The notes under the pieces are model-generated. The model was given only the letters and a program-made list of their open reading frames with translations, did not search any database and was not told where the DNA came from. Below, piece by piece: positions 17-15,535 of a stretch of DNA of 64,000 nucleotides. The first letter of the stretch is position 1, and each line of letters starts with the position of its first letter. The translations under genes and the position numbers were made by a program. The stretch is taken from positions 128,001-192,000 of the IMG/VR virus record IMGVR_UViG_3300031992_000007; one strand, 5' to 3'. The DNA comes from a virus. Lineage: Duplodnaviria; Caudoviricetes.

Positions 17-1318
17 ATGTTCACGAAGCATTACGATGAACTGGATCCTGCGGTCAAGAAATACCCGAAGGATGCAGACATTGCACTTCCGGTTATCGTG
101 GCGGACGTCCGGGCATGGAGGGACATCCTCTTTGAGCGTCTCTACATTGCCGACAACGTGACCAACGATCCGATCTCGTGGCTTGTCACGGTTGCTGTTG
201 TGTTCAGGATGTACAATGTCATTCCTGAGGCATTCGGTGATCTCGTCGATGGTATCAACAAGAGGATCGCAAGCTTCAAGGTCGAGAGGCAGAAAGCTGA
301 TCAGCAGCCCAGGTTCGCTCCGATCGAATCTCTCGTTCTCAACAAGCTTACGGACGAGGAACTGGATAATCCCTGTCTTGCCAAGTTCCTTGAAAAGTTC
401 TTTGGAGAAGACTTCAAGGTCATCGTCGCAGATGCTGTCGATCCGTCCATGACTGTCACGATCGTACTCAATACTGATCGTGCGGTTACCCACGAACATG
501 TCCGTCACCGTCGTGACGTTGGTTATTCGCAGGAATCCCAGCGTTACGTCAACTACGCGAAGAAGGGATACGAGTCCCTTAAGTTCACTTGTGATCCCGC
601 CAAGGCTCCGGAAGGTGTCGAGGTTGGAATGTATGACGGTATCGTGGCTGAGGATGAAGTTGGCGCTCGAGTCTACGAGATGTCCGTTACCCAATCTTTC
701 GCAGCATACGAGAAACTCATCGGGATGGGTTACCCGCCCGAGTGCGCTCGCAAGGTCCTCCCGAATGCCTGCCGTACGCAGATCGTCGTTACCTGGTTGC
801 TCCCGATCGGGTTCTCGAACTTCATGCGTTGGCGCACGGAGAAGTTCGCGCAGTACGACATCCGTCTTGCTGCCGACAAGATCCTCTATCAGATGCTCAA
901 GATGAAGCATCCGTTCCTCACCATCCTCGGCACTCGTGATCTCTATCACTGGTTCAACTGGATGAAGGAACAGAATATCTTCGACAAGGCGATCCTTGAT
1001 GAGATCGATAGTGCTCTTGCAGAGCGTTCTGCTGTGGAAGAGGAACTCATGCGTCAGGCTAAGGAAGCTCATGAAGCTGAGGAAGCCAGACGTATGGAGC
1101 AGATGAAGAAGATGACTGAAGGTGATGGGGTTGTCGTTGACGATCACACTACCAAGAAGCTTCCTTCGAACGCTGAACCTCCGGCAGTCGTGAATGTTGG
1201 TCACAATGATCAGTCTGCCACACCTTCTGAGCCTGTGACGGAACGTCCTGCAACGATCCAGCTCGAACCCAAGAAGGACAAGAGTGCAGAAGAACACATT
1301 GGTGATGTCCCGTGCTGA
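17..1318 (+). CDS. thyX: Flavin-dependent thymidylate synthase (ThyX family), probably 5'-truncated by the window
   Basis: ThyX motif THEHVRHRRDVGYSQESQRYV, plus PPECARKVLPNACRT and AQYDIR; frame is open back to the window start; long acidic/low-complexity C-tail. Confidence 0.85.
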   Translation: MFTKHYDELDPAVKKYPKDADIALPVIVADVRAWRDILFERLYIADNVTNDPISWLVTVAVVFRMYNVIPEAFGDLVDGINKRIASFKVERQKADQQPRFAPIESLVLNKLTDEELDNPCLAKFLEKFFGEDFKVIVADAVDPSMTVTIVLNTDRAVTHEHVRHRRDVGYSQESQRYVNYAKKGYESLKFTCDPAKAPEGVEVGMYDGIVAEDEVGARVYEMSVTQSFAAYEKLIGMGYPPECARKVLPNACRTQIVVTWLLPIGFSNFMRWRTEKFAQYDIRLAADKILYQMLKMKHPFLTILGTRDLYHWFNWMKEQNIFDKAILDEIDSALAERSAVEEELMRQAKEAHEAEEARRMEQMKKMTEGDGVVVDDHTTKKLPSNAEPPAVVNVGHNDQSATPSEPVTERPATIQLEPKKDKSAEEHIGDVPC

Positions 1319-3632: not shown

Positions 3633-6600
3633 TTACGCTTCTTTCCACATAGCAAGCATGTCGTTCTCAAGCTTCTCCAATACAGAATTACACAGACCTT
3701 GGAGGAACGGACTTGTAATAAGACGTGCAAGTATGCCACGTCCACTTGTACAAGCCTCTACTTTCTCTCCATCCTCAGTCAAGATGTAATCATCGTATTT
3801 GGTAGACACTGTGCTCTTAAGAGCAGAGTCGAAGAACAACTTGTCGCCAGGATTCATCCCCTTGGTCTGCTTGATGTAGAACCTAAGGATTACGGTCTCC
3901 TCGGTAAGATCGACTGTACCTACCTTAGAGGTAGCAGCCAACGGAGCAGACTTCCTGAACTGGTTCGCGTTGTCACAACCAGCAGCTCTTTCGGCACGAG
4001 CGTCTTTGTCTTTGATCACGTGACGAACAAGCTTCTGTAAAGACGGACTCATCTGGGAGATTGGGCATTTGTACAACGCCTCGATCTTCATGATCGTTCC
4101 AGAGTGTCCTGCCTTAGGAGCCTGTCTATTCAGTTCACTAAGTTTCTCAGTGAGAACCTGGTCGTCTCCAGTATCGAACGGAAGAGCTGACTGATCGAAC
4201 ACGATAAGAGGTTCAGTGTTAAGAACATCCGTACCTAAGTCAGCGAACGAGTGAACGTTCGTGTCCTTAGTTATCACTATCTCCTTAACATGGATTGGGT
4301 TGAACACCATCTTGTCTGCAAGGGGTTGAGTGATGATGGACGCGTCCTCAACTGTGCCACCATTGTCGAGAATAGCAACCTTGGCTAGAATACCAAGTTT
4401 CATCTCAACTTGCTTATCGTAAGGATTGGCCTGGAAGAACTGCCTATTGTAGATCAAGATATCTCCTGGCTTGAACTTATCTCCAGCCTTGAAGTTATTG
4501 ACCACAACCTCCTGGTCGACGAAGAAACCATTGGCAGAGTTGTTAGTGGCTTCCGAACCAAAAGGTAGACAGACCTTCTTACCATCCTTGTAACGAATGA
4601 TCATCGTCCTGCTCTTCTCATCCACAGACTGTACAGTACCTTCACTCTGCGCAGCATAAGCAAAGTTTGGGTTAGTACACTTGTGAGCAACAACTCCTTC
4701 ATAACCGGTCTTCAGACGAGACACTTCGGATTCGGCTATCGGCACATAGTGCGACATCTGAATGTTGATGAAGTTCGCGCGCTTTGAATCGTCGGAGGTT
4801 GCACCAGGGACAAGAAGGCTAGTAATAGACAAGACATTCTCAGGTTCGAGTTTGTCTATGTCTGCCTCAGTCACGGCCATACCTCTGGCATTCGTGAAGA
4901 TAGGGTTGAAAGGAAGAGTTGCATTGAGGCCAGTAGTTCCATTATCGACAGTTGCCTCACTGACGATACCAAGTTGGTCGTCTGTGAACTGACGATCTGG
5001 AATCATGAATGTGTCATTGCTACGACCACCGTCACCAGCATTGGAGAACTTGGAGTACATCTTGATGTCATGGATCGGGTTGATCACGCTGACATTCTCC
5101 ACCAACTGATGATGCATGATACGCTGAGCAACAGCATACTCACTTATTGAGAACTTGTTAGATGAACCAACAGAACGATTCTTGTAGCCAGCGAAAGCAC
5201 GAGCCAACTCGTTGTACACCATACCAGTTATCTGTTCAACTCCACGGAAACGGAAGTTAGAAGCAGAAGCCGGATGCTTGTGCTCGGTGGTTGTAAGCAT
5301 CGCTACAGCACGGATGAGAAGGTCCCTGATGTCAGTAGGCTCTCTCATCTCACGGAGAACATCCTTGGTTGTAGGATCGATGAAGAGGTTGAACACCCCA
5401 TCGATACCCTTGATCATGTTAGGAGAGATTCCCTTCTGACTGAGCATGTCGTAGTAGACATCCTTGTCATCCATATCCTCAATAGAGAAGTTGCCAAGAT
5501 CGTAGATACTTAACCCACCGAACAGAAGAGCGTTAACTCTCGGGTTACGACGGATGATGAGCTTCTTATCCGAGAACTGGATGACGATATCAGAAATCCT
5601 CTTCTCCACACGGGCATTCTTGTCGAAGATCTCGTAGTCGACATTGCAGTACTTGAGCATGTTCCGCAATCCGTACTTGTAGCACAGCATGTGCGCAACA
5701 GGGATCACGTAGCTCATAATAGTAACCTGAGCATACTCGACCATCGAGTTGAATTCCATCCCAGTGATGTACTCCACGAAGTCCATGAAGGCTCCGTAGA
5801 AAGGTTCCGTATCAGGATCCTTGATGGATCTAGAGCAGACCTGTCCAGTTACGGTGATGAAGAAGTGTTCGTCTCCACGAGAACCGAACCACACTCCACA
5901 TTCCTTCTCCATCTTGGAGATCTCTTTCTTGAGAGCATCAGGAATGACAACCTCTCTGTTCATGATGTCGAAGAACATGAACCCACCCTGGAAGTCTATC
6001 CTGGTGTATTTGGATCCAAGTTCTGTCAACTCGAACGGGAAAGCTTTGATGGGGTATTTGCAGGAACCATGAGAAAGAGTGTACTTGAACCCAGCTTCAC
6101 CGGCTTTCTTAAGGGCTTTGTCGAACCAGGTCTTAAAGTCATGAGCAGCATTCGTGTTCCTCGTAACCAACAACTTGTTGTAGTTGGAGTTGAGGGTTAC
6201 ACGATCATCCTTGACTTTACAAATAGGATTTGAGACTCTCTGTTTGTGGATCGTCTTGACCGAGCCGTTGTCCAAGAAGTTGCCGTTCTTGTCAACCTTA
6301 GGAAGACTGAGCTTGAAGGAATGGTTCTTGTGGTTGAGGTCTTCGTACTTAACCTTGTAGACAGTCCTTGAGTTAAGGTCGTCAACCAAGTCTTCCTGTT
6401 GGAAGTCCACCAGGAACATACCCTGCTTATTAAAGGAAGTGAAGATCGCAGCCAAGTCCTTGTTCATCAGCTTATCGATGTACTGAGCATCCAAGTCAGC
6501 TGTAGTAGAACCTGCGAACATGTGTTCGTTAGTTCCACTGATAATAGCTTCCTTAGGCTGAGAGTCAAGAACTTTCTTCTCCTGTTTCTTGAGTTCAGGA

Positions 6601-7967
6601 GGAGGTTCAAGATCGAACTCAGGAACTTCAGTAAGAACCTGTTGGAAGGATTTGCCACCGATAGTAAGCTTCTTGTAGGAGGTGCTTATCTTCCTAGCAT
6701 GCTCCTTCTGAGCAGTTGACAGAGGTTTGTCATCTGCTGTTATGTTGGCGCTCAGGATGGCATCGAAGTCATCCAGTTCCTTCATGTCAATATCCGAAGC
6801 TTCCTGTTTTTCTTTGAGAGTCATCGGAGCTACGAACTCAGGCTGGTTGGCTTTGTTACCACCTTCTTCGACATCGACTATTTCCTCAGAGACTGACTCC
6901 GGTTCGGCAGTCTGGATGAAGGTAGAAGGAGCAGCACTTCCAGTAAGCATGTTCACATGGTTGATGACACGGATAATGCCGGAACCATTATGCCCTGCTA
7001 TCTCCTTAAGATCTCTGAGGTTGTAGATGATGAAGTTCTCTCCACAAGTAAGGAAGATGTTGATGTTCTCCAGCATCCTAGGAGGAAGGAATTCAAAGAT
7101 CGACTTCTTGTACGGATTCTCTGTATCCTTGAGAGTCAACTCTTCCATGGCACAGATGTTATCCGACTCCACGAAAGTCCTCACGTTTGTAAGGAACTCT
7201 TCGGAAGTAAGATCGGGATCGTAGGTAGAAGGATCGATAGCGAATGCTTCGATAGCCTTCTTGTCCTCTTCCTCTTCGCCCTCCATCTGTCCTCGTTTGG
7301 GCAAGGACATCGGTTTGGCTAACAAACCATACAGGTGTGCTAGGAACAAGTACGAGGATATCTCAGGGTATTTGGTAGAGATACGATCGTACTTCTTGAA
7401 GATCCTAACGAAGTCACTCTTCTCGAACCTAAGTGCTTCCAGAGGGATGTGGATATAATGCATCCTGTCAGGAGCAGTCATGATCGTGTTGAGGACATAG
7501 GCAAAAAGAAAGTTGAGGAATCTCGGCTTCCTTCTTATTCCCATGACTCTAGCACGGAAAATCGAGTTGTAGTTGACGAGAGGAAGAGTGTTGGGCCGAA
7601 TGGGCATCGACTTGATGTCATTGAACGGAAGCACTCTGCCCTTCATATCCCTTCTGTAAGCATTAAGCTGAGAGATCAGCCCGGATGCTGTCAACCTTAT
7701 CCTGTTCCTTACAACAGGGACAGTTTCGGGAAGAGACTCCATCCCAGTCACATGATGAACAAAGATCTTGTAGTTGTTCATCGTGGTGATAGGGTTGTCG
7801 AACGCAGGAGCGAAGTTGACCACACCCTGGTTCATTGGGAAGTTATCCAGCACATGAGCTATAGCACCAACAGGGAGTTCGGATAGTTCATTGATCTTGT
7901 GAAGTTCCTTGAACTGACCTTGACGGAAAGTCTGGAACCTGCGCCGGAATTGGGCGAATTTGATCAT
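3633..7967 (-). CDS. Virion RNA polymerase beta subunit (phiKZ gp178-like)
   Basis: 1444 aa; RpoB-like motifs DDSKRANFINIQMSH, EDASII, GDKLFF; size matches gp178. Confidence 0.9.
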   Translation of the reverse strand: MIKFAQFRRRFQTFRQGQFKELHKINELSELPVGAIAHVLDNFPMNQGVVNFAPAFDNPITTMNNYKIFVHHVTGMESLPETVPVVRNRIRLTASGLISQLNAYRRDMKGRVLPFNDIKSMPIRPNTLPLVNYNSIFRARVMGIRRKPRFLNFLFAYVLNTIMTAPDRMHYIHIPLEALRFEKSDFVRIFKKYDRISTKYPEISSYLFLAHLYGLLAKPMSLPKRGQMEGEEEEDKKAIEAFAIDPSTYDPDLTSEEFLTNVRTFVESDNICAMEELTLKDTENPYKKSIFEFLPPRMLENINIFLTCGENFIIYNLRDLKEIAGHNGSGIIRVINHVNMLTGSAAPSTFIQTAEPESVSEEIVDVEEGGNKANQPEFVAPMTLKEKQEASDIDMKELDDFDAILSANITADDKPLSTAQKEHARKISTSYKKLTIGGKSFQQVLTEVPEFDLEPPPELKKQEKKVLDSQPKEAIISGTNEHMFAGSTTADLDAQYIDKLMNKDLAAIFTSFNKQGMFLVDFQQEDLVDDLNSRTVYKVKYEDLNHKNHSFKLSLPKVDKNGNFLDNGSVKTIHKQRVSNPICKVKDDRVTLNSNYNKLLVTRNTNAAHDFKTWFDKALKKAGEAGFKYTLSHGSCKYPIKAFPFELTELGSKYTRIDFQGGFMFFDIMNREVVIPDALKKEISKMEKECGVWFGSRGDEHFFITVTGQVCSRSIKDPDTEPFYGAFMDFVEYITGMEFNSMVEYAQVTIMSYVIPVAHMLCYKYGLRNMLKYCNVDYEIFDKNARVEKRISDIVIQFSDKKLIIRRNPRVNALLFGGLSIYDLGNFSIEDMDDKDVYYDMLSQKGISPNMIKGIDGVFNLFIDPTTKDVLREMREPTDIRDLLIRAVAMLTTTEHKHPASASNFRFRGVEQITGMVYNELARAFAGYKNRSVGSSNKFSISEYAVAQRIMHHQLVENVSVINPIHDIKMYSKFSNAGDGGRSNDTFMIPDRQFTDDQLGIVSEATVDNGTTGLNATLPFNPIFTNARGMAVTEADIDKLEPENVLSITSLLVPGATSDDSKRANFINIQMSHYVPIAESEVSRLKTGYEGVVAHKCTNPNFAYAAQSEGTVQSVDEKSRTMIIRYKDGKKVCLPFGSEATNNSANGFFVDQEVVVNNFKAGDKFKPGDILIYNRQFFQANPYDKQVEMKLGILAKVAILDNGGTVEDASIITQPLADKMVFNPIHVKEIVITKDTNVHSFADLGTDVLNTEPLIVFDQSALPFDTGDDQVLTEKLSELNRQAPKAGHSGTIMKIEALYKCPISQMSPSLQKLVRHVIKDKDARAERAAGCDNANQFRKSAPLAATSKVGTVDLTEETVILRFYIKQTKGMNPGDKLFFDSALKSTVSTKYDDYILTEDGEKVEACTSGRGILARLITSPFLQGLCNSVLEKLENDMLAMWKEA

Positions 7968-8134: not shown

Positions 8135-8719
8135 AGGCTCTCCGGAGGTGATGTCACTATTTACAACCAATATGGGTTAGCACAACCAAGTAACCTTATC
8201 GTTATGGATTATTCCGTAAACAATGGATGTCTTCCTAATAATCACATGGGTTTTGGATTGATTTTTATAGGAAAACCAGGAAGGCTCTCCCAGATAGGTG
8301 AGACGACAACTCCAGAATGGTTGAAGAACAAGATGGGAATGTGTAGTGCCGAAAGTCAGGGTTCGACAAGAACGTACGATCAATCTCCTAACACAGTTGT
8401 AACCAGACAGGGTGGCTTTATTCCAAGGCTCTCCAGGTGGAAATACCGAAAATAAAGACGTACATAGTAGACAGGAAACATTGGTCATAATGTCTAATGG
8501 AAGTGCGCATTACCACGATTCAAGATTGTGGCCAGCAGCTAATGATCCAGAAAGAGTAAGGCTCTCCGCTCCGCCGGAGGTGTTTCGTACGCACAGACAC
8601 ATTATTTCTTTCCGCACTGCGTAGCTCCAATAATCGACGACGGTGTGATGTGGCAGAACGGGTGGCAGGGTGCAGATTTGATGCATTATAGCGGAATATT
8701 TAAGCAAATAAGGCTCTCC
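8135..8719 (+). repeat. Periodic array of five AGGCTCTCC motifs separated by unique structured 124-143 nt units
   Basis: Copies at 8135, 8282, 8426, 8559, 8711 (period 147/144/133/152); AGGTG follows within 0-9 nt in the first four. Confidence 0.85.
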
Positions 8720-8797
8720 AGCAATTAGTATAAATTTATCTTCTCCAACACCATACTACAACTTAATCGACCTCTTTACAAAACTAAGGAGACAACA

Positions 8798-9181
8798 ATG
8801 AAAGCCAAGACAAAAACAACGAAGAAGACTGCAGCCTCCAAGGCGAAGAAGCCTGTGAAGAAGGTTGCTAAGAAATCCGCCAAGTCGGTCAAGCCGGACA
8901 AGAAGAAAGTCAGCAAGATCAACAAGAAGGACAACGAAATCGGTTCCAAGATCGTTGATCTTCTGAAGAACACTCTTGCTCCAACTTCGACACTCAAGGC
9001 CGCTCCGTCTGCTCCGGCAACTCAGAGCAAGTCGCCGGTTGCAACGATCGGAACGTGCACCCAGGCCCAGGTTAAGTCAGTGACTCGCTTCTCTGCAACT
9101 CCTGTTGCTAAGACAAGGTTCGTTGCAGCTGGCGTGTCGCCCAAGACTAACTTGCCTGTCACTCTTGTTGCCAGCAAGTAA
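8798..9181 (+). CDS. Histone H1-like / Lys-Ala-rich basic nucleic-acid-binding protein
   Basis: MKAKTKTTKKTAASKAKKPVKKVAKKSAK N-terminus; SD AAGGAG. Confidence 0.75.
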   Translation: MKAKTKTTKKTAASKAKKPVKKVAKKSAKSVKPDKKKVSKINKKDNEIGSKIVDLLKNTLAPTSTLKAAPSAPATQSKSPVATIGTCTQAQVKSVTRFSATPVAKTRFVAAGVSPKTNLPVTLVASK

Positions 9182-9184
9182 CAA

Positions 9185-9995
9185 CCATCTTTTGACGCCA
9201 ACCCAATTAGAGGATGCACTCAGCGCTTTACTACAGAGGATGACCTTAGGTCTTTCTGTACATTCCTAAAGCCTAACGGAGGACTGTGTGGACGTGTGAG
9301 TAATAGACGTGAACCTTAACCTATCCCACGTTTGATTATCTTCGCACGGAGTCCTTCTAAAATTGAGTTGATGTAACGTCATCGATCCGACTAACTACCC
9401 TCAGTGCGTTGCCCGCGGCCTGCTGCTCCGCGGTAAATGAATGAACAGATATAGGTGAATGAAGGATCGGGATATCGAGGGAGTACAAGGTCGATAGACA
9501 AACATCAGAGCAGAAGTTAAAAGTGTGTGCCGATAGAACACCACGTCATTACCTTAGGGCGTTCTGAGAGGAGCCTAGAACTTATCAGAATGCCCGCCTA
9601 GCTAGCGTCAAAGGTATCACCCACATAACGTTCGTCATGACGTATCCGAATCTGGGAAGGTTCGGTTGGATGTGGGGTTAGGTTAAAAGGTAGATTCTAT
9701 CTGCGCGGAACGTGTCCTGGTGGATGTTCTAATTCCATCAGGTTCGCGCATACCCACAATAGACAGATGTTCTGTTATTGTGACAAATTAGCGGTTCGTC
9801 GGTTGTGTGAGTATAAGTGAATCCGAGTTTAAGTTATCAGAGTCAGTGATGACCCACAGGTGGCATCTGCAAAGGTGGCTCCGGTGGGCATTTGGTCGAA
9901 CTGACATCCAAGTCTGTAACTGCTTCGGTGCTACGCTCCCCTCAACCGGAAGTAATTCCGGAGAAACCGATACCTTCTTAACAGCGGAGAAAGGT
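9185..9995 (+). ncRNA. Large ornate ncRNA candidate 1 (~800 nt)
   Basis: No credible ORF; long-range 10-bp helix 9189-9198/9605-9614; hairpin loop TTAACCTA 9316-9323 complementary to TAGGTTAA 9679-9686; many strong hairpins such as GGGCGTTCTGA/TCAGAATGCCC. Confidence 0.7.
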
Positions 9996-10004
9996 TGACT
10001 GCAA

Positions 10005-10244
10005 ATGGCATTGCGACCAAAACATCAGGTTGAAGCATATGAGAAAGCGACAGTCCTTGATATGCCATGTGGTTTCTGTTGTACAATGATGCCTGTTCCT
10101 AGGGAACTCTATGAACAAGGTGGTATCTACAGATGTCCAAAGTGCAAGATGGCTGTTAAATTCAAGAAACACAAGATCAAGGTTGCCAAACGGACCAGGA
10201 AGTTCAATATTCGGAACCGAATTAACGTACCAGATTTCTCGTGA
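10005..10244 (+). CDS. Small basic zinc-ribbon protein
   Basis: CGFC...CPKC; Lys/Arg-rich C-half. Confidence 0.65.
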   Translation: MALRPKHQVEAYEKATVLDMPCGFCCTMMPVPRELYEQGGIYRCPKCKMAVKFKKHKIKVAKRTRKFNIRNRINVPDFS

Positions 10245-10312
10245 TATACCAGTTGTAGAAATTGACATTACCTTTCTATGTAGGCAACCGCCTACAGGAA
10301 GGTATGGGTCAG

Positions 10313-11032
10313 ATGAAGAAACTAATCTTGGCACTGTTGCTAGTTGCCACATGTTGCATAGTCGGCATCGGAGCAGCTACCTCAGCCTCAACGGTATCCG
10401 CGTTAGAAGTGGTCGATGAATACAAGCTCACGATGATACTCCAGGTTCCGCATACGTTCGATAACATGCAGTCTCTAGGGTATCGTAAGCTCAAACATCA
10501 ACGTGTCGAAGGTACACTGAAGATCGTCTATTCGGCAGATGGTTCACGTTCTCCCTACATAGAGGTCACCAATCTGGTCAACAGGAGCTACAAGCTCAGC
10601 AATGGTAAGTATGTAACGTATACCGCACTGATGGGCGATGTGTTCCACATTGGCTATATCGGTAACAACAGAACTGGGGTGTTCAAGAAACCCTTTGTCT
10701 CATTCTCTATGGACTGCGATCCGTCGTACAATGTCGGCGACGATGAACCCGATAATACCCTTGTCCTTGAATGCTCTGGGTATGGTACTTCCAGGACCAT
10801 GCTTTGGAACGGCTACAAGGTCAGGTATATCCGTTCACTGGTAGGAGAACTCGCTGGTAACTTGGGTTGTGGTTGCAGAGCTTACGGTCATACTTCAGCC
10901 ACTCGTCAAGCTGGTTGGATTGGTCCCACTGACACAGTGGTGGACATAGCTGCTATTAAAGCTGGCAGGTGGCGTATCGCATGGAAAGCTCGGTATATCA
11001 GAGAAGCCCAGTCTGACGACGAGGATTACTAA
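10313..11032 (+). CDS. Secreted/periplasmic hypothetical protein
   Basis: Signal peptide MKKLILALLLVATCC...; ACATTAC early-type promoter at 10265-10271. Confidence 0.75.
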   Translation: MKKLILALLLVATCCIVGIGAATSASTVSALEVVDEYKLTMILQVPHTFDNMQSLGYRKLKHQRVEGTLKIVYSADGSRSPYIEVTNLVNRSYKLSNGKYVTYTALMGDVFHIGYIGNNRTGVFKKPFVSFSMDCDPSYNVGDDEPDNTLVLECSGYGTSRTMLWNGYKVRYIRSLVGELAGNLGCGCRAYGHTSATRQAGWIGPTDTVVDIAAIKAGRWRIAWKARYIREAQSDDEDY

Positions 11033-11050
11033 AAAGAAAAGGAGGGTGAT

Positions 11051-11278
11051 ATGCTCCATACATTGCTCATCGGTGTTGCAATAGTGGTCGGTGTCATTGT
11101 AGCCCTCCTAGTTATAGCTTTTCTCGGTTGTCTATACTACGCTTGTGTGTTAGCACGAGCAGAAACAATTAAAGCGCAGACTGGTTGTACTGATGAAGAA
11201 GCAGTGGCCAGAGCCTTGCACGAAGTATCTGCCAATGCAAGCACGATTCAGAATCCAAATGGTCTTCAGTTCGGTTGA
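11051..11278 (+). CDS. Small single-pass membrane protein
   Basis: N-terminal 30-aa hydrophobic segment; SD GGAGG. Confidence 0.7.
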   Translation: MLHTLLIGVAIVVGVIVALLVIAFLGCLYYACVLARAETIKAQTGCTDEEAVARALHEVSANASTIQNPNGLQFG

Positions 11279-12184: not shown

Positions 12185-12655
12185 TGATTTCAACAGTACG
12201 CATCACCATGTAGCGAAAGCTACCAGATGTTGCGGGCTCTGACCTATCAGGTAGTGCTGTAGGTTGCAAACTCAGCACAGCTATTGATAGGTGCCTTAGA
12301 CCGATGGGCTCGACTCTCGCGGTAGCCTTAGGCTTGGCGGGAGATGAGTCAATGTACAACATAACCACACAGTTCATGTCGCCTAAGAAAGTGACTTGCA
12401 GGTGACAAACTGTATGTGGAGTGAGTACAATGAGACCATGGGAAGACGACGCGGCAGCAATCACTAGCTTCATGCGTCTATCGGTAGGCTTTACCCGTGG
12501 TTTCCATTAAGTGGAAAGTGGTTCACTTACACCGTGTTGGGACCGAACGAGCCGAACCTAAAGTCGGAAATAGAACACGGTTAGATCCGCAGGGTGTTCG
12601 AATACGCTCTGCTAATGCTTCGCGGGAGTTCGTGAATTGCAACTCCTGCACCCCA
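12181..12655 (+). ncRNA. Large ornate ncRNA candidate 2 (~475 nt)
   Basis: Closing helix CTAGTGATT 12181-12189 / AATCACTAG 12459-12467; TAGC-GAAA-GCTA tetraloop; T-loop hairpin GCAGGGTGT-TCGAAT-ACGCTCTGC; ends ...CACCCCA. Confidence 0.65.
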
Positions 12656-12660
12656 TATAC

Positions 12661-12794
12661 GACCACGCACCACGGTTGGTAAATGGTTTTGAGGATGCGT
12701 TATGATTCGTCCATGCTAGCTGGCGGATGAGCAGAGTACTCCTTAACGTATCTCTCTGACTTTTTAGACAGTTCGAATCTGTCATGCGTGGTCA
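12661..12794 (+). ncRNA. Expanded tRNA-like RNA A (134 nt)
   Basis: 9-bp acceptor GACCACGCA/TGCGTGGTC+A; D-loop-like GTTGGTAAA; T-arm GACAG-TTCGAAT-CTGTC; long branched stem replaces the anticodon arm. Confidence 0.75.
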
Positions 12795-12800
12795 CCCTAT

Positions 12801-13070
12801 CGATGTGGACTGGTGGAAGCAGATGAACACTATCCGGCTGCGATGCTGGACGAGGGACAAGAGGCTCATTTAGGCAATGTAGAATTGCCTTTGAGGTGAG
12901 TACTGGTGTAACACTCTCAGGCAGACACTATCTTGAAAGCTGCGAGTTGATCACATACACAGAAGATCGCATCAGCTGTGTGTGGTCGGGATGAACGGTT
13001 CGCAGTGAGTGAGAGACCGTGGCGGTACGGCAACGACGCCCACTATTGGTTCGAGTCCAATGCACATCGT
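12801..13070 (+). ncRNA. Expanded tRNA-like RNA B (270 nt)
   Basis: Acceptor CGATGTG/CACATCG; D-arm-like CTG-GTGGAAG-CAG; T-arm ATTGG-TTCGAGT-CCAAT; about 210-nt multi-hairpin insert. Confidence 0.75.
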
Positions 13071-13084
13071 CCCTTTCAATTTCT

Positions 13085-13370
13085 TGTCGGTCGATCAAAA
13101 AGAAAAGAGACCGCTACGGCGATCCTTCTCCTGCATGTAGTATACTTCATCGGAATAGTAAGCGCCAATGTTTGTCACTGTGCATGTATTTTCGATCGAC
13201 ATTTTGTCTTCTCCAGCTGTCGCAATGCATGGCGATAGATGGAAAGTGGAACAACCGAACCTAATCGGTGTAGCCCCTATCCCAGTAGAGGAAGCTGAGG
13301 CGAAAACAAACCCTGTTCGCAGGTCAGTTGAGATGAGTGGCGCCATCTTGTAAAAACTATGCCGGCCTTT
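13085..13370 (+). ncRNA. Possible further structured RNA
   Basis: GTCGATC/GATCGAC helix, CTGTCGC/GCGATAG hairpin; shares TGGAAAGTGG...CCGAACCTAA..TCGG module with ncRNA 2. Confidence 0.4.
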
Positions 13371-13397
13371 CAACAACAAACAAACCAAAGGTGACAC

Positions 13398-13628
13398 ATG
13401 AGTAAATTGAAGCCGCCTGGTGTAAAACTTAAGATCACTGACTGCTCTAAGATCGATGGTGCGACTCCCATGACATTCATGTGTTCTCCACGCGGACCTG
13501 TGATAGTAAACTCTCCGGAAGAGTTTGACGACCTAACTGGTGAACCGCGTGGAACTACAAGGAAGATGATTCGTGCAACTGGAGCGAGACGTATATCGAT
13601 GATCGGTCGCATAAAGGTACCATCTTGA
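13398..13628 (+). CDS. Small basic hypothetical protein
   Basis: SD AAAGGTG; Arg/Lys-rich C-terminus. Confidence 0.6.
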   Translation: MSKLKPPGVKLKITDCSKIDGATPMTFMCSPRGPVIVNSPEEFDDLTGEPRGTTRKMIRATGARRISMIGRIKVPS

Positions 13629-13644
13629 TTAAGGAGGACTTTAA

Positions 13645-15459: not shown

Positions 15460-15535
15460 TCCAACTTAGCTCAGTTGGTAGAGCGCCGCACTGTTAATGC
15501 GGTGGTCCCAGGTTCGAGTCCTGGAGTTGGAGCCA
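15460..15535 (+). tRNA. trnN: tRNA-Asn(GTT)
   Basis: Canonical 76-nt cloverleaf: TCCAACT/AGTTGGA, anticodon loop CT-GTT-AA, T-loop TTCGAGT, encoded CCA. Confidence 0.97.

What the first reader, a model, noticed from the sequence alone, without database searches (positions are those of the whole stretch)
9185..9995. ~800-nt ornate, pseudoknotted ncRNA directly downstream of the histone-like gene
Seen: an ORF-free stretch in a gene-dense genome that is almost fully paired. A 10-bp helix (9189-9198/9605-9614) closes a ~425-nt domain, and a hairpin loop inside it (9316-9323) matches 9679-9686 outside it, giving a long-range pseudoknot. Several G-U pairs point to selection on RNA structure. Established: phages encode large ornate RNAs (GOLLD, ROOL) near tRNA genes. 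Whether this belongs to one of those classes or is new cannot be judged by eye.
Basis: partly seen in the sequence, partly recalled or inferred. Interest (0 to 1): 0.72.

Follow-up and report, generated by a model that had tools for sequence, protein, structure and literature searches.

The report
New large structured RNA in rumen jumbo phages
The gene-free stretch is a real, conserved, intricately folded RNA gene of about 760 nucleotides, found in a clade of phiKZ-like giant phages from rumen metagenomes; it matches no known RNA family, so it is a candidate new class of large "ornate" phage RNA.

Summary
Window 9182-10004 is open in none of the six frames. The + strand folds better than shuffles (z -3.8); the - strand does not. 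The same ~800-nt ORF-free gap sits in five further distinct metagenomic relatives, in the same place: after a Lys-rich small-protein gene and before a zinc-ribbon gene.

The six sequences are only 47-60% identical overall. They share about 15 ordered blocks, most of them invariant, with invariant runs of up to 13 nt. Between the blocks lie arms of near-constant length and different sequence.

Covariation is strong:
- 3' domain: 56 pairs, 95.5% of cells paired (slid controls 37-44%), 20 pairs changed on both sides, 0/500 shuffles.
- 5' domain: 34 pairs, 92.4% paired, 16 pairs changed on both sides, 0/500.
- Compensatory changes occur inside otherwise invariant blocks.

Covariance models of both domains find a colinear 774-nt copy in a more distant phage, followed 228 nt later by a tRNA array.

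No Rfam family matches at E<=10 in six homologs; GOLLD and ROOL were also searched separately.

Verdict: a genuine, apparently undescribed large RNA family. Function and expression are untested. This scan has not noted it on other DNA.

The parts
8728..8759 (+). Conserved upstream element GTATAAATTTAYC-N8-CACCATACTAC, 40-70 nt before the Lys-rich gene. It is a candidate promoter or 5' leader of the unit that contains the RNA.
   Evidence: Aligned in 7 loci, near-invariant in six and partly kept in L002. Each half occurs only once in the 64-kb window at <=1 mismatch. The promoter role is inferred.
8798..9181 (+). It lies immediately 5' of the RNA in 7 loci.
   Evidence: Homologs of 102-130 aa align with the conserved motifs TGAKIADLLKNTL and RFRAAG. 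No family match.
9182..9213 (+). Variable leader between the stop codon and the conserved core (about 18-36 nt in the six sequences).
   Evidence: Not alignable among homologs. Its pairing to 9605-9614 is not above chance and not conserved.
9214..9974 (+). Conserved core of the RNA (about 760 nt). About 15 ordered blocks, most of them invariant, are separated by arms of conserved length and free sequence.
   Evidence: Six distinct sequences aligned. Invariant runs of 13, 11, 11, 10 and 10 nt compare with <=6 nt in the flanking coding sequences.
9219..9367 (+). 5' domain. P1 9219-9223/9363-9367 (CUCAG/UUGAG). P2 9225-9230/9267-9272. P3 hairpin 9232-9238/9253-9260. P4 9278-9284/9351-9357. P5 9293-9299/9342-9348.
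   Evidence: RNAalifold. Pair counts: 92.4% paired against 30-45% in slid controls, 16 pairs changed on both sides, 0/500 shuffles. P2 shows G-C to A-U in L027. P1 is invariant and therefore untested. Coordinates.
9368..9524 (+). Domain 2: long branched arm, 156-167 nt in every homolog, with no alignable sequence.
   Evidence: Each homolog folds into one long arm. Mean z is -2.4 on the sense strand against -0.8 antisense.
9525..9702 (+). Domain 3, closed by the helix GAUAGAA (9532-9538) / UUCUAUC (9695-9701). It contains a GGGA-tetraloop hairpin (core pairs 9650-9653/9658-9661).
   Evidence: In L022 the closing helix reads GAUGAAA/UUUCAUC, two compensatory pairs inside invariant blocks. The GGGA hairpin stem covaries.
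9703..9790 (+). Domain 4: two hairpins, 70-100 nt in total, sequence free.
   Evidence: All six fold as two hairpins. Sense z ranges from -2.8 to -5.5, mean -3.9. MAFFT cannot align them.
9793..9974 (+). 3' domain. The outer helix 9793-9804/9965-9974 encloses a long irregular stack (9805-9812/9930-9938; 9823-9831/9919-9928; 9837-9841/9913-9917; 9842-9847/9900-9905; 9848-9854/9886-9892) capped by a GNRA hairpin (9862-9868/9873-9879), plus a side hairpin (9946-9949/9958-9961). The internal loops UGGUCGA, AUCCAAG and CCCUCAA are conserved.
   Evidence: 56 pairs, 95.5% paired against 37-44% in slid controls, 20 pairs changed on both sides, 0/500 shuffles. Model R1 finds this domain in L002, L004 and L007. 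Coordinates.
9975..10004 (+). Variable tail up to the start codon of the next gene. No terminator-like site.
10005..10244 (+). Gene for a 79-aa basic zinc-ribbon protein (CxxCC...CxxC). It lies immediately 3' of the RNA in the six close loci.
   Evidence: No family or PDB match.
9312..9338 (+). It pairs over about 25 bp with 9663-9692, in this genome only.
   Evidence: window z -2.9, homologs about 0.
9663..9692 (+). 3' strand of the same window-specific complementarity.

Best explanation
SHOWN. Window ~9214-9974 (+) is the gene of a large structured non-coding RNA that belongs to no Rfam family. It is conserved in a clade of phiKZ-like jumbo phages that encode their own multisubunit RNA polymerase, known only from metagenomes whose record names suggest rumen samples. 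It has five domains. The 5' and 3' domains are strongly conserved. The central domain is closed by a covarying 7-bp helix. Two arms keep their length and foldability but not their sequence. It carries GNRA tetraloops and conserved internal loops.

INFERRED. It is transcribed rightwards together with the upstream Lys-rich protein gene, from the conserved element at 8728-8759. I infer this because no conserved promoter-like sequence lies between that gene's stop codon and the core, and no terminator-like site lies on the + strand between 8800 and 10300. It then folds, and is perhaps cut out, into a compact tertiary structure. It acts in trans as a stable RNA particle or scaffold, alone or with the two small basic proteins encoded on either side. 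That is the same way of working as the phage-borne ornate RNAs GOLLD and ROOL. I put about 0.93 on 'real conserved structured RNA of a new family' and about 0.35 on the scaffold/particle mechanism.
For: - Not coding: stops of all three kinds in all six frames.
- Strand-specific stability in six homologs. Sense z: -3.8, -2.5, -2.3, -2.0, -1.0, -2.1. Antisense z: +0.3, -0.9, -1.1, -0.3, -0.3, -1.9.
- A syntenic gap of 804-836 nt in five further distinct sequences.
- Bimodal conservation: 53% mean pairwise identity, yet invariant runs up to 13 nt, against <=6 nt in the neighbouring coding sequences.
- Covariation in the 3' domain, the 5' domain and the central closing helix. This includes compensatory changes inside invariant blocks: UCGGUU/AACCGA to UUGGUU/AACCAA in L012 and to UCGAUU/AAUCGA in L027; GUCAGU/ACUGAC to GUCGGU/ACCGAC in L012; GAUAGAA/UUCUAUC to GAUGAAA/UUUCAUC in L022.
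- Invariant G-U pairs, which would be A-C mismatches on the other strand.
- Models R1 and R2 find colinear 5' and 3' domains in L002 (E 2.6e-6 and 2.5e-6), 774 nt end to end. L002 keeps 41 of 56 pairs, 22 of them changed on both sides.
- One copy per genome.
- No Rfam family at E<=10 in the window or in five homolog loci. GOLLD and ROOL searched singly: nothing.
- Context resembles GOLLD and ROOL. L002 has a five-tRNA array 228 nt downstream. tmRNA genes lie in the same islands of L003 and L024. PMC12286853 describes both classes as phage or prophage RNAs near tRNA islands.
Against: - No transcript evidence.
- Only six close and one to three distant sequences are available. Helices made of invariant blocks (P1, and CCGAG/CUUCGG) cannot be tested by covariation.
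- Alignments fitted to a model lean towards that model.
- Two segments (9294-9359 and 9543-9651) are no more stable than shuffles when folded on their own.
- Nothing bears directly on function. tRNA adjacency holds strictly in only one relative. ARAGORN finds no tRNA in the other relatives' loci.
- With no terminator before the downstream gene, the RNA could instead be a very long leader.
Confidence: 0.7

Rival explanations
1. It is a giant cis-acting leader or intercistronic region. The structure controls translation, stability or processing of the flanking small basic-protein genes and has no role in trans.
For: No terminator-like site and no conserved promoter separate it from either neighbour. 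The order Lys-rich gene, RNA, zinc-ribbon gene is fixed in six loci. The tail runs straight into the ribosome-binding site of the downstream gene.
Against: A core of about 760 nt with about 15 blocks, most of them invariant, five domains and tertiary-motif-like loops is far more than known bacterial or phage leaders need. In L002 a tRNA array separates the RNA from the next protein gene, and the zinc-ribbon gene is not its neighbour there. In L004 and L007 the upstream gene is not a recognisable Lys-rich homolog.
Confidence: 0.15
2. It is a ribozyme or a relic of a self-splicing or mobile RNA: a divergent group I or II intron, an RNase P-like RNA, or a new catalytic RNA.
For: Its size, its multi-domain fold with GNRA loops and its strictly conserved unpaired blocks are what large ribozymes look like. 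It lies in an island of RNA genes that need processing.
Against: No group I, group II, RNase P or other ribozyme model matches at E<=10 in six homologs. There is no interrupted host gene: the upstream gene ends in a conserved stop codon and the downstream gene has its own start. No intron-encoded protein is present. The RNA is single-copy and at a fixed locus.
Confidence: 0.07
3. It is a DNA-level element (replication origin, packaging site or protein-binding array) or decaying former coding sequence, and the apparent folds are incidental.
For: It is an ORF-free stretch next to a repeat array (8135-8719) where assemblies often break.
Against: Compensatory base-pair changes, conserved G-U pairs, GNRA loops and sense-only stability are properties of RNA. 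Blocks more conserved than the neighbouring genes exclude decay.
Confidence: 0.03

Closest known systems
GOLLD RNA (Rfam RF02032)
   Same: Phage-borne, about 800 nt, multi-domain and rich in long-range helices. It lies in or beside tRNA islands, and its function is unknown (PMC12286853). In the relative L002 our RNA is followed by a tRNA array.
   Different: No match to the GOLLD model at E<=10 in the whole 265-kb genome or in five homolog loci. [quoted passage not shown] Here both ends are conserved and the middle arms are free. Oligomerisation is unknown.
ROOL RNA (Rfam RF03087)
   Same: Described from rumen metagenomes, and encoded by phages and prophages near tRNA islands. It is large and ornate, and no protein partner is known (PMC12286853). 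Our relatives come from records whose names suggest rumen studies.
   Different: No match to the ROOL model. Our RNA is about 200 nt longer than the 574-position ROOL model. It occurs in jumbo phages that encode their own RNA polymerase, not in Lactobacillales-type prophages.
OLE RNA / raiA motif RNA (large bacterial ncRNAs that work with proteins)
   Same: Large, strongly conserved RNAs of unknown biochemical role. OLE works with small basic proteins, including bS21 (PMC12054373). Here two small basic proteins are encoded on either side of the RNA.
   Different: No model match. Those RNAs are cellular, not phage-borne. Binding of the flanking proteins to our RNA is untested.
tmRNA and tRNA genes of the same phage islands
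   Same: Same genomic neighbourhood and the same strand in the relatives.
   Different: No tRNA-like domain was detected by ARAGORN or Rfam in the stretch. The relatives carry a separate, canonical tmRNA.

Membership tests
GOLLD (RF02032) | Match to the family covariance model (gathering score 150 bits) | tested here: not met
   No match at E<=10 in the own genome, in window 8900-10300, or in 5 homolog loci.
GOLLD (RF02032) | Phage or prophage location next to tRNA genes | tested here: inconclusive
   The location is a phage. tRNAs lie 228 nt away in L002 but 5.5 kb away in the window. ARAGORN finds none in the other loci.
GOLLD (RF02032) | Homo-oligomeric cage (14-mer) seen by cryo-EM | not testable with these tools
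   This needs in vitro transcription and cryo-EM or mass photometry.
ROOL (RF03087) | Match to the family covariance model (gathering score 99.1 bits) | tested here: not met
   No match at E<=10. The control genomes also gave nothing, so that single call is weak. The cmscan calls cover the same model.
Group I / group II introns, RNase P RNA, OLE, HEARO, tmRNA | Match to any of the Rfam models | tested here: not met
   Only chance-level hits to unrelated small families outside the gap, or inside it in a single locus (mir-320 in L012). tmRNA is found elsewhere in L003 and L024, so the method works on these contigs.
Self-splicing intron (any class) | Interrupts a host gene whose exons join in frame | tested here: not met
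   The upstream gene ends with a stop codon that is conserved in position. The downstream gene has its own ribosome-binding site and ATG. In L002 a tRNA array lies between them.
Structured ncRNA (generic criteria) | Conserved secondary structure supported by compensatory changes and above controls | tested here: met
   0/500 shuffles, and slid controls 2-3 times lower.
Structured ncRNA (generic criteria) | Transcribed as RNA | not testable with these tools

The most novel reading that the evidence does not exclude
This is a further, independent class of giant natural RNA that builds a higher-order particle: a homo-oligomeric cage like GOLLD and ROOL, or an RNP with the two flanking basic proteins. 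It would be made by jumbo phages that encode their own RNA polymerase and would act on the phage's own tRNA/tmRNA/translation machinery. A new large ribozyme is a less likely variant of the same reading.
Probability: 0.25. Interest if true: 0.9.

Novelty: new variant of a known kind. Interest (0 to 1): 0.78.

Why it matters
Only a handful of bacterial or phage RNAs larger than 500 nt are known: rRNA, group II introns, OLE, GOLLD and ROOL. Two of them were recently shown to form RNA-only nanocages of unknown purpose.

An unrelated RNA of about 760 nt with the same genomic habit would matter in three ways:
- It would show that giant ornate RNAs are a recurrent phage invention rather than two oddities.
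- It gives a third independent case for asking what such RNAs do.
- It comes from a different phage lineage, phiKZ-like jumbo phages with their own RNA polymerase.

It is also a well-defined target for cryo-EM and probing, with covariation-supported domain boundaries. Two candidate protein partners are encoded beside it.

Tried and rejected
SEARCHES THAT FOUND NOTHING
- blastn (distant mode) of the stretch against 50,697 GenBank phages: no match.
- Close-relative protein scans of IMG/VR with the flanking proteins and with RNAP beta: nothing.
- Exact conserved-block patterns in IMG/VR: nothing.
- The same pattern in 185,579 prokaryote genomes: one 22-nt hit in a Gammaproteobacteria MAG with no flanking similarity. 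I expect about one such hit by chance, so I rejected it.
- nhmmer with one sequence or with the six-sequence profile does not reach the distant relatives; only the covariance models do.
- Two IMG/VR jumbo phages with RNAP beta at 42-43% identity have no R1 match in their whole records.

READINGS REJECTED
- Alternative genetic code.
- First pairwise alignment to the L002 gap: looked random. It was resolved later by the models.
- A 5'/3' terminal helix (AGAGG/CUUCU). It covaries between the window and L012, but I found no consistent equivalent in the other four, so I left it out.
- Box C/D-like letters (GUGAUGA...CUGA) in the 3' domain. Homologs change them while keeping Watson-Crick pairing.
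- L003 weak hits (E 0.18 and above) are not colinear and were not counted.

- Five of twelve contig look-ups had a place whose DNA could not be returned because the sample file was too large; for three of them nothing came back.
- MAFFT cannot align domain 4.
- The constrained fold with forced non-canonical pairs gave a meaningless energy and was not used.
- Flanking proteins: no Pfam, PHROG, NCBIfam or PDB relatives.

Full report
WHERE WE ARE
The window is bases 128001-192000 of a 265,480-bp IMG/VR virus record that CheckV rates complete. The 1444-aa gene at 3633-7967 (-) is a phage multisubunit RNA polymerase beta subunit (phrog_3148, E 4e-236). Its best GenBank phage relatives are phiKZ-like jumbo phages at only about 28% identity. 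The genome is therefore an uncultivated, distant relative of the phiKZ-like jumbo phages. Names of the related ENA records (STEW18, WILK20, XIEF21) suggest rumen samples. That is an inference from the names only.

CHECKING THE OBSERVATION
Bases 9182-10004 lie between the stop codon of a 127-aa Lys-rich protein gene and the ATG of a 79-aa zinc-ribbon gene. Every frame on both strands contains TAA, TAG and TGA stops, so stop-codon recoding cannot open it.

As RNA, the + strand has an MFE of -268.3 kcal/mol against -242.8 +/- 6.7 for dinucleotide shuffles (z -3.8, 0/20). The - strand has z +0.3.

KNOWN FAMILIES
- cmscan of the whole window at gathering thresholds finds only tRNA-Asn at 15460.
- With permissive filters and E<=10, nothing falls inside 9182-10004.
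- The same search over five loci that carry homologs puts no family repeatedly in the gap. It does detect a canonical tmRNA elsewhere in L024, and one in L003 at gathering threshold, so the method works on these contigs.
- GOLLD (RF02032) and ROOL (RF03087) searched singly over the whole phage genome give nothing at E<=10.

FINDING RELATIVES
DNA searches of GenBank phages and IMG/VR were empty. The protein route worked.
- The RNAP beta subunit has a graded series of metagenomic relatives from 89% down to 46% identity.
- The downstream 242-aa protein has relatives at 54-65% identity.
- Fetching their contigs gave five further distinct sequences with the same layout: Lys-rich gene, ORF-free gap, zinc-ribbon gene. 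They are L012:241-1074(-), L022:2783-3588 (=L023), L024:2885-3688 (L025 is 99% identical), L026:2855-3690, and L027:2871-3689 (=L028; L029 and L030 are partial).
- The gap lengths are 834, 806, 804, 836 and 819 nt, against 823 nt in the window.

PATTERN OF CONSERVATION
The six sequences are 47-60% identical overall. They share about 15 blocks, most of them invariant, always in the same order. Examples: CTCAGCRCTTTACT, ATTCCTAAAGYCTA, AAATTGAG, GTGTGMYGATRRAAMACC, CTGGGARG, GATTYYATCT, GTGAATCCGAG, AGAGTCRGTGAYG, TTTGGTCGAACYGACATCCAAGTCT, CTTCGGTGCT, CTCCCCT.

The longest invariant runs (13, 11, 11, 10, 10 nt) exceed anything in the neighbouring coding sequences (<=6 nt). They equal those of the far better conserved polymerase gene.

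The spacers between blocks are unalignable but keep their lengths: 156-167, 96-110, 70-100 and 35-50 nt. Each folds into hairpins or arms. This mix of frozen blocks and free but foldable arms is the signature of a structured RNA. It is not the signature of coding DNA or of drift.

STRUCTURE AND COVARIATION
3' domain (window 9793-9974; alignment A5). RNAalifold gives a nested stack of ten helices.
- On it, 95.5% of cells are standard pairs, against 37-44% when partners are slid by 1-3 columns.
- 20 of 56 pairs change on both sides, against 2-7 in slid controls.
- All five measures beat 500/500 shuffles.
- The most telling events are compensatory changes inside otherwise invariant blocks. UCGGUU/AACCGA becomes UUGGUU/AACCAA in L012 and UCGAUU/AAUCGA in L027. 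GUCAGU/ACUGAC becomes GUCGGU/ACCGAC in L012.

5' domain (9219-9367; A6). It has 34 pairs, 92.4% paired (slid 30-45%), 16 pairs changed on both sides and 0/500 shuffles. This includes G-C to A-U in the RCUUUA/UAAAGY helix.

Central domain. It is closed by GAUAGAA (9532-9538) pairing with UUCUAUC (9695-9701). In L022 these read GAUGAAA/UUUCAUC, which is two compensatory pairs. Inside is a hairpin with a GGGA tetraloop whose stem covaries. A second GNRA hairpin (GCAA/GGAA) caps the 3' stack.

Variable arms. They are more stable than shuffles on the sense strand. Domain 2 has mean z -2.4, domain 4 has -3.9 and the GNRA hairpin has -3.0. Antisense values are weaker: -0.8, -2.7 and -1.3.

Whole molecule. 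Sense z is negative in all six sequences (-3.8 to -1.0) and always below antisense.

Strand. Several pairs are invariant G-U. They would be A-C mismatches on the other strand, which fixes the strand.

MORE DISTANT MEMBERS
A covariance model of the 3' domain (R1) finds full-length matches inside the syntenic ORF-free gaps of phages whose polymerase is only 56-69% identical:
- L002 8694-8882(-), 30.1 bits, E 2.5e-6.
- L004 650-821(-), 31 bits, E 1.5e-6.
- L007 4391-4570(-), 15.5 bits, E 0.016.

L002 keeps 41 of 56 pairs, and 22 of them differ on both sides from the consensus. That alignment is fitted to the model, so it leans towards it.

A model of the 5' domain (R2) hits L002 9321-9467(-) at E 2.6e-6. 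It hits L004 weakly at 1105-1257(-) (E 0.12), colinear with the 3' hits. The L002 RNA is thus 774 nt long. It starts 13 nt after the Lys-rich gene. It is followed after 228 nt by tRNA-Pro, Leu, Gln, Met and Ser.

The RNA is single-copy in the window's genome. It is not detectable in two IMG/VR jumbo phages at 42-43% polymerase identity.

The 5' strand of the 10-bp helix lies in the leader (9182-9213). The leader is outside the conserved core and varies in both length and sequence. Its duplex with the target segment is not above shuffles (z -1.3, 21/200). In the homologs the best leader pairings fall at unrelated positions.

In the five homologs the equivalent segments score like shuffles. It may be a lineage-specific contact or chance. 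It does not define the family.

TRANSCRIPTION (INFERRED)
No terminator-like site lies on the + strand between 8800 and 10300. No conserved sequence lies between the stop codon and the core.

A strongly conserved element, GTATAAATTTAYC-N8-CACCATACTAC (8728-8759), precedes the Lys-rich gene in all close relatives and partly in L002. It is unique in the window. The simplest reading is one unit: element, Lys-rich gene, RNA, and in the close clade the zinc-ribbon gene. The RNA would either be released by processing or act within the transcript.

WHAT IT MOST LIKELY DOES
The anatomy is that of RNAs that fold into a defined three-dimensional body:
- Two conserved terminal domains.
- Long-range closing helices.
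- GNRA loops.
- Strictly conserved unpaired loops (UGGUCGA, AUCCAAG, CCCUCAA, AAGUGAAU).
- Spacer arms selected for length and stability only.

The genomic habit also fits: a phage, the same strand as the surrounding small genes, and a region that in relatives holds tRNA arrays and a tmRNA. The closest analogues in kind are GOLLD and ROOL. Both are phage or prophage RNAs near tRNA islands, form homo-oligomeric cages, and have unknown function (PMC12286853).

I therefore favour a trans-acting stable RNA particle or scaffold, possibly with the two flanking basic proteins. I rate this mechanism at about 0.35. The rivals are a giant cis-acting leader (0.15), a ribozyme or intron relic (0.07), and a DNA-level element or decay (0.03). 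The rest of the probability is unassigned.

Membership in GOLLD, ROOL, OLE, HEARO, intron, RNase P and tmRNA families was tested with their models and not met.

NOVELTY
My searches of the paper library found no description of such an RNA in jumbo phages. A 2026 review of jumbo phage biology mentions non-coding RNAs only in passing. Earlier notes of this scan cover only this same stretch of this same genome. I class it as a new variant of a known kind. The kind, large ornate phage RNAs, is known. The family, its architecture and its host lineage are new.

LIMITS
- Six close sequences and one to three distant ones.
- No transcript data.
- Several helices are invariant and therefore untested.
- The central arms are not aligned.
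- Host unknown.

Noticed in passing
window 8135-8719: The exact 9-mer AGGCTCTCC occurs five times at 133-152-nt spacing, between the RNAP beta gene and the Lys-rich gene. The space between these two genes varies from 136 nt (L022) and 250 nt (L026) to about 810-830 nt (L024, L027, window). Several metagenome contigs break 39-62 nt upstream of RNAP beta. The stretch looks like a variable cassette region.
   Followed up: partly
window 8728-8759: The conserved element GTATAAATTTAYC-N8-CACCATACTAC lies upstream of the Lys-rich gene in seven loci and is unique in the 64-kb window. It is a candidate locus-specific promoter or leader.
   Followed up: partly
L003:2523-2908 (-) and L024:6428-6823 (+): Relatives encode a canonical tmRNA (98.7 and 101.8 bits) in the ORF-free island a few kb from the RNA. 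No tmRNA is detected in the corresponding ORF-free stretch of the window (about 12185-13644) by Rfam at E<=5 or by ARAGORN.
   Followed up: partly
L002:3151-8465: The 69%-identity relative carries 11 tRNA genes in three clusters. One is a five-gene array (Pro, Leu, Gln, Met, Ser) starting 228 nt after the RNA. A 138-aa 'gene' called on that array is probably spurious.
   Followed up: no
window 9312-9338 with 9663-9692: A complementarity of about 25 bp (-29.1 kcal/mol, z -2.9) that is specific to this genome and absent from the five homologs.
   Followed up: yes
L019, L020 (= window 8771-11257 and 8790-11256): Logan contigs from two other runs (SRR10838750, SRR7634052) are 100% identical to the window over about 2.5 kb, and an ENA sample holds a 246-kb contig with the same genes. 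Both short contigs begin within 30 nt of each other, just before the Lys-rich gene, with about 23 unrelated bases at the start.
   Followed up: partly
window 8798-9181 and 10005-10244: The two small basic proteins that flank the RNA (a Lys/Ala/Pro-rich protein with a TGAKIADLLKNTL motif, and a CxxCC...CxxC zinc ribbon) have no family or PDB relatives. They keep their positions in six loci.
   Followed up: partly
L035:523-543: A 22-nt exact match to the most conserved block in a Gammaproteobacteria MAG contig. There is no flanking similarity, and about one such hit is expected by chance in 596 Gb.
   Followed up: yes
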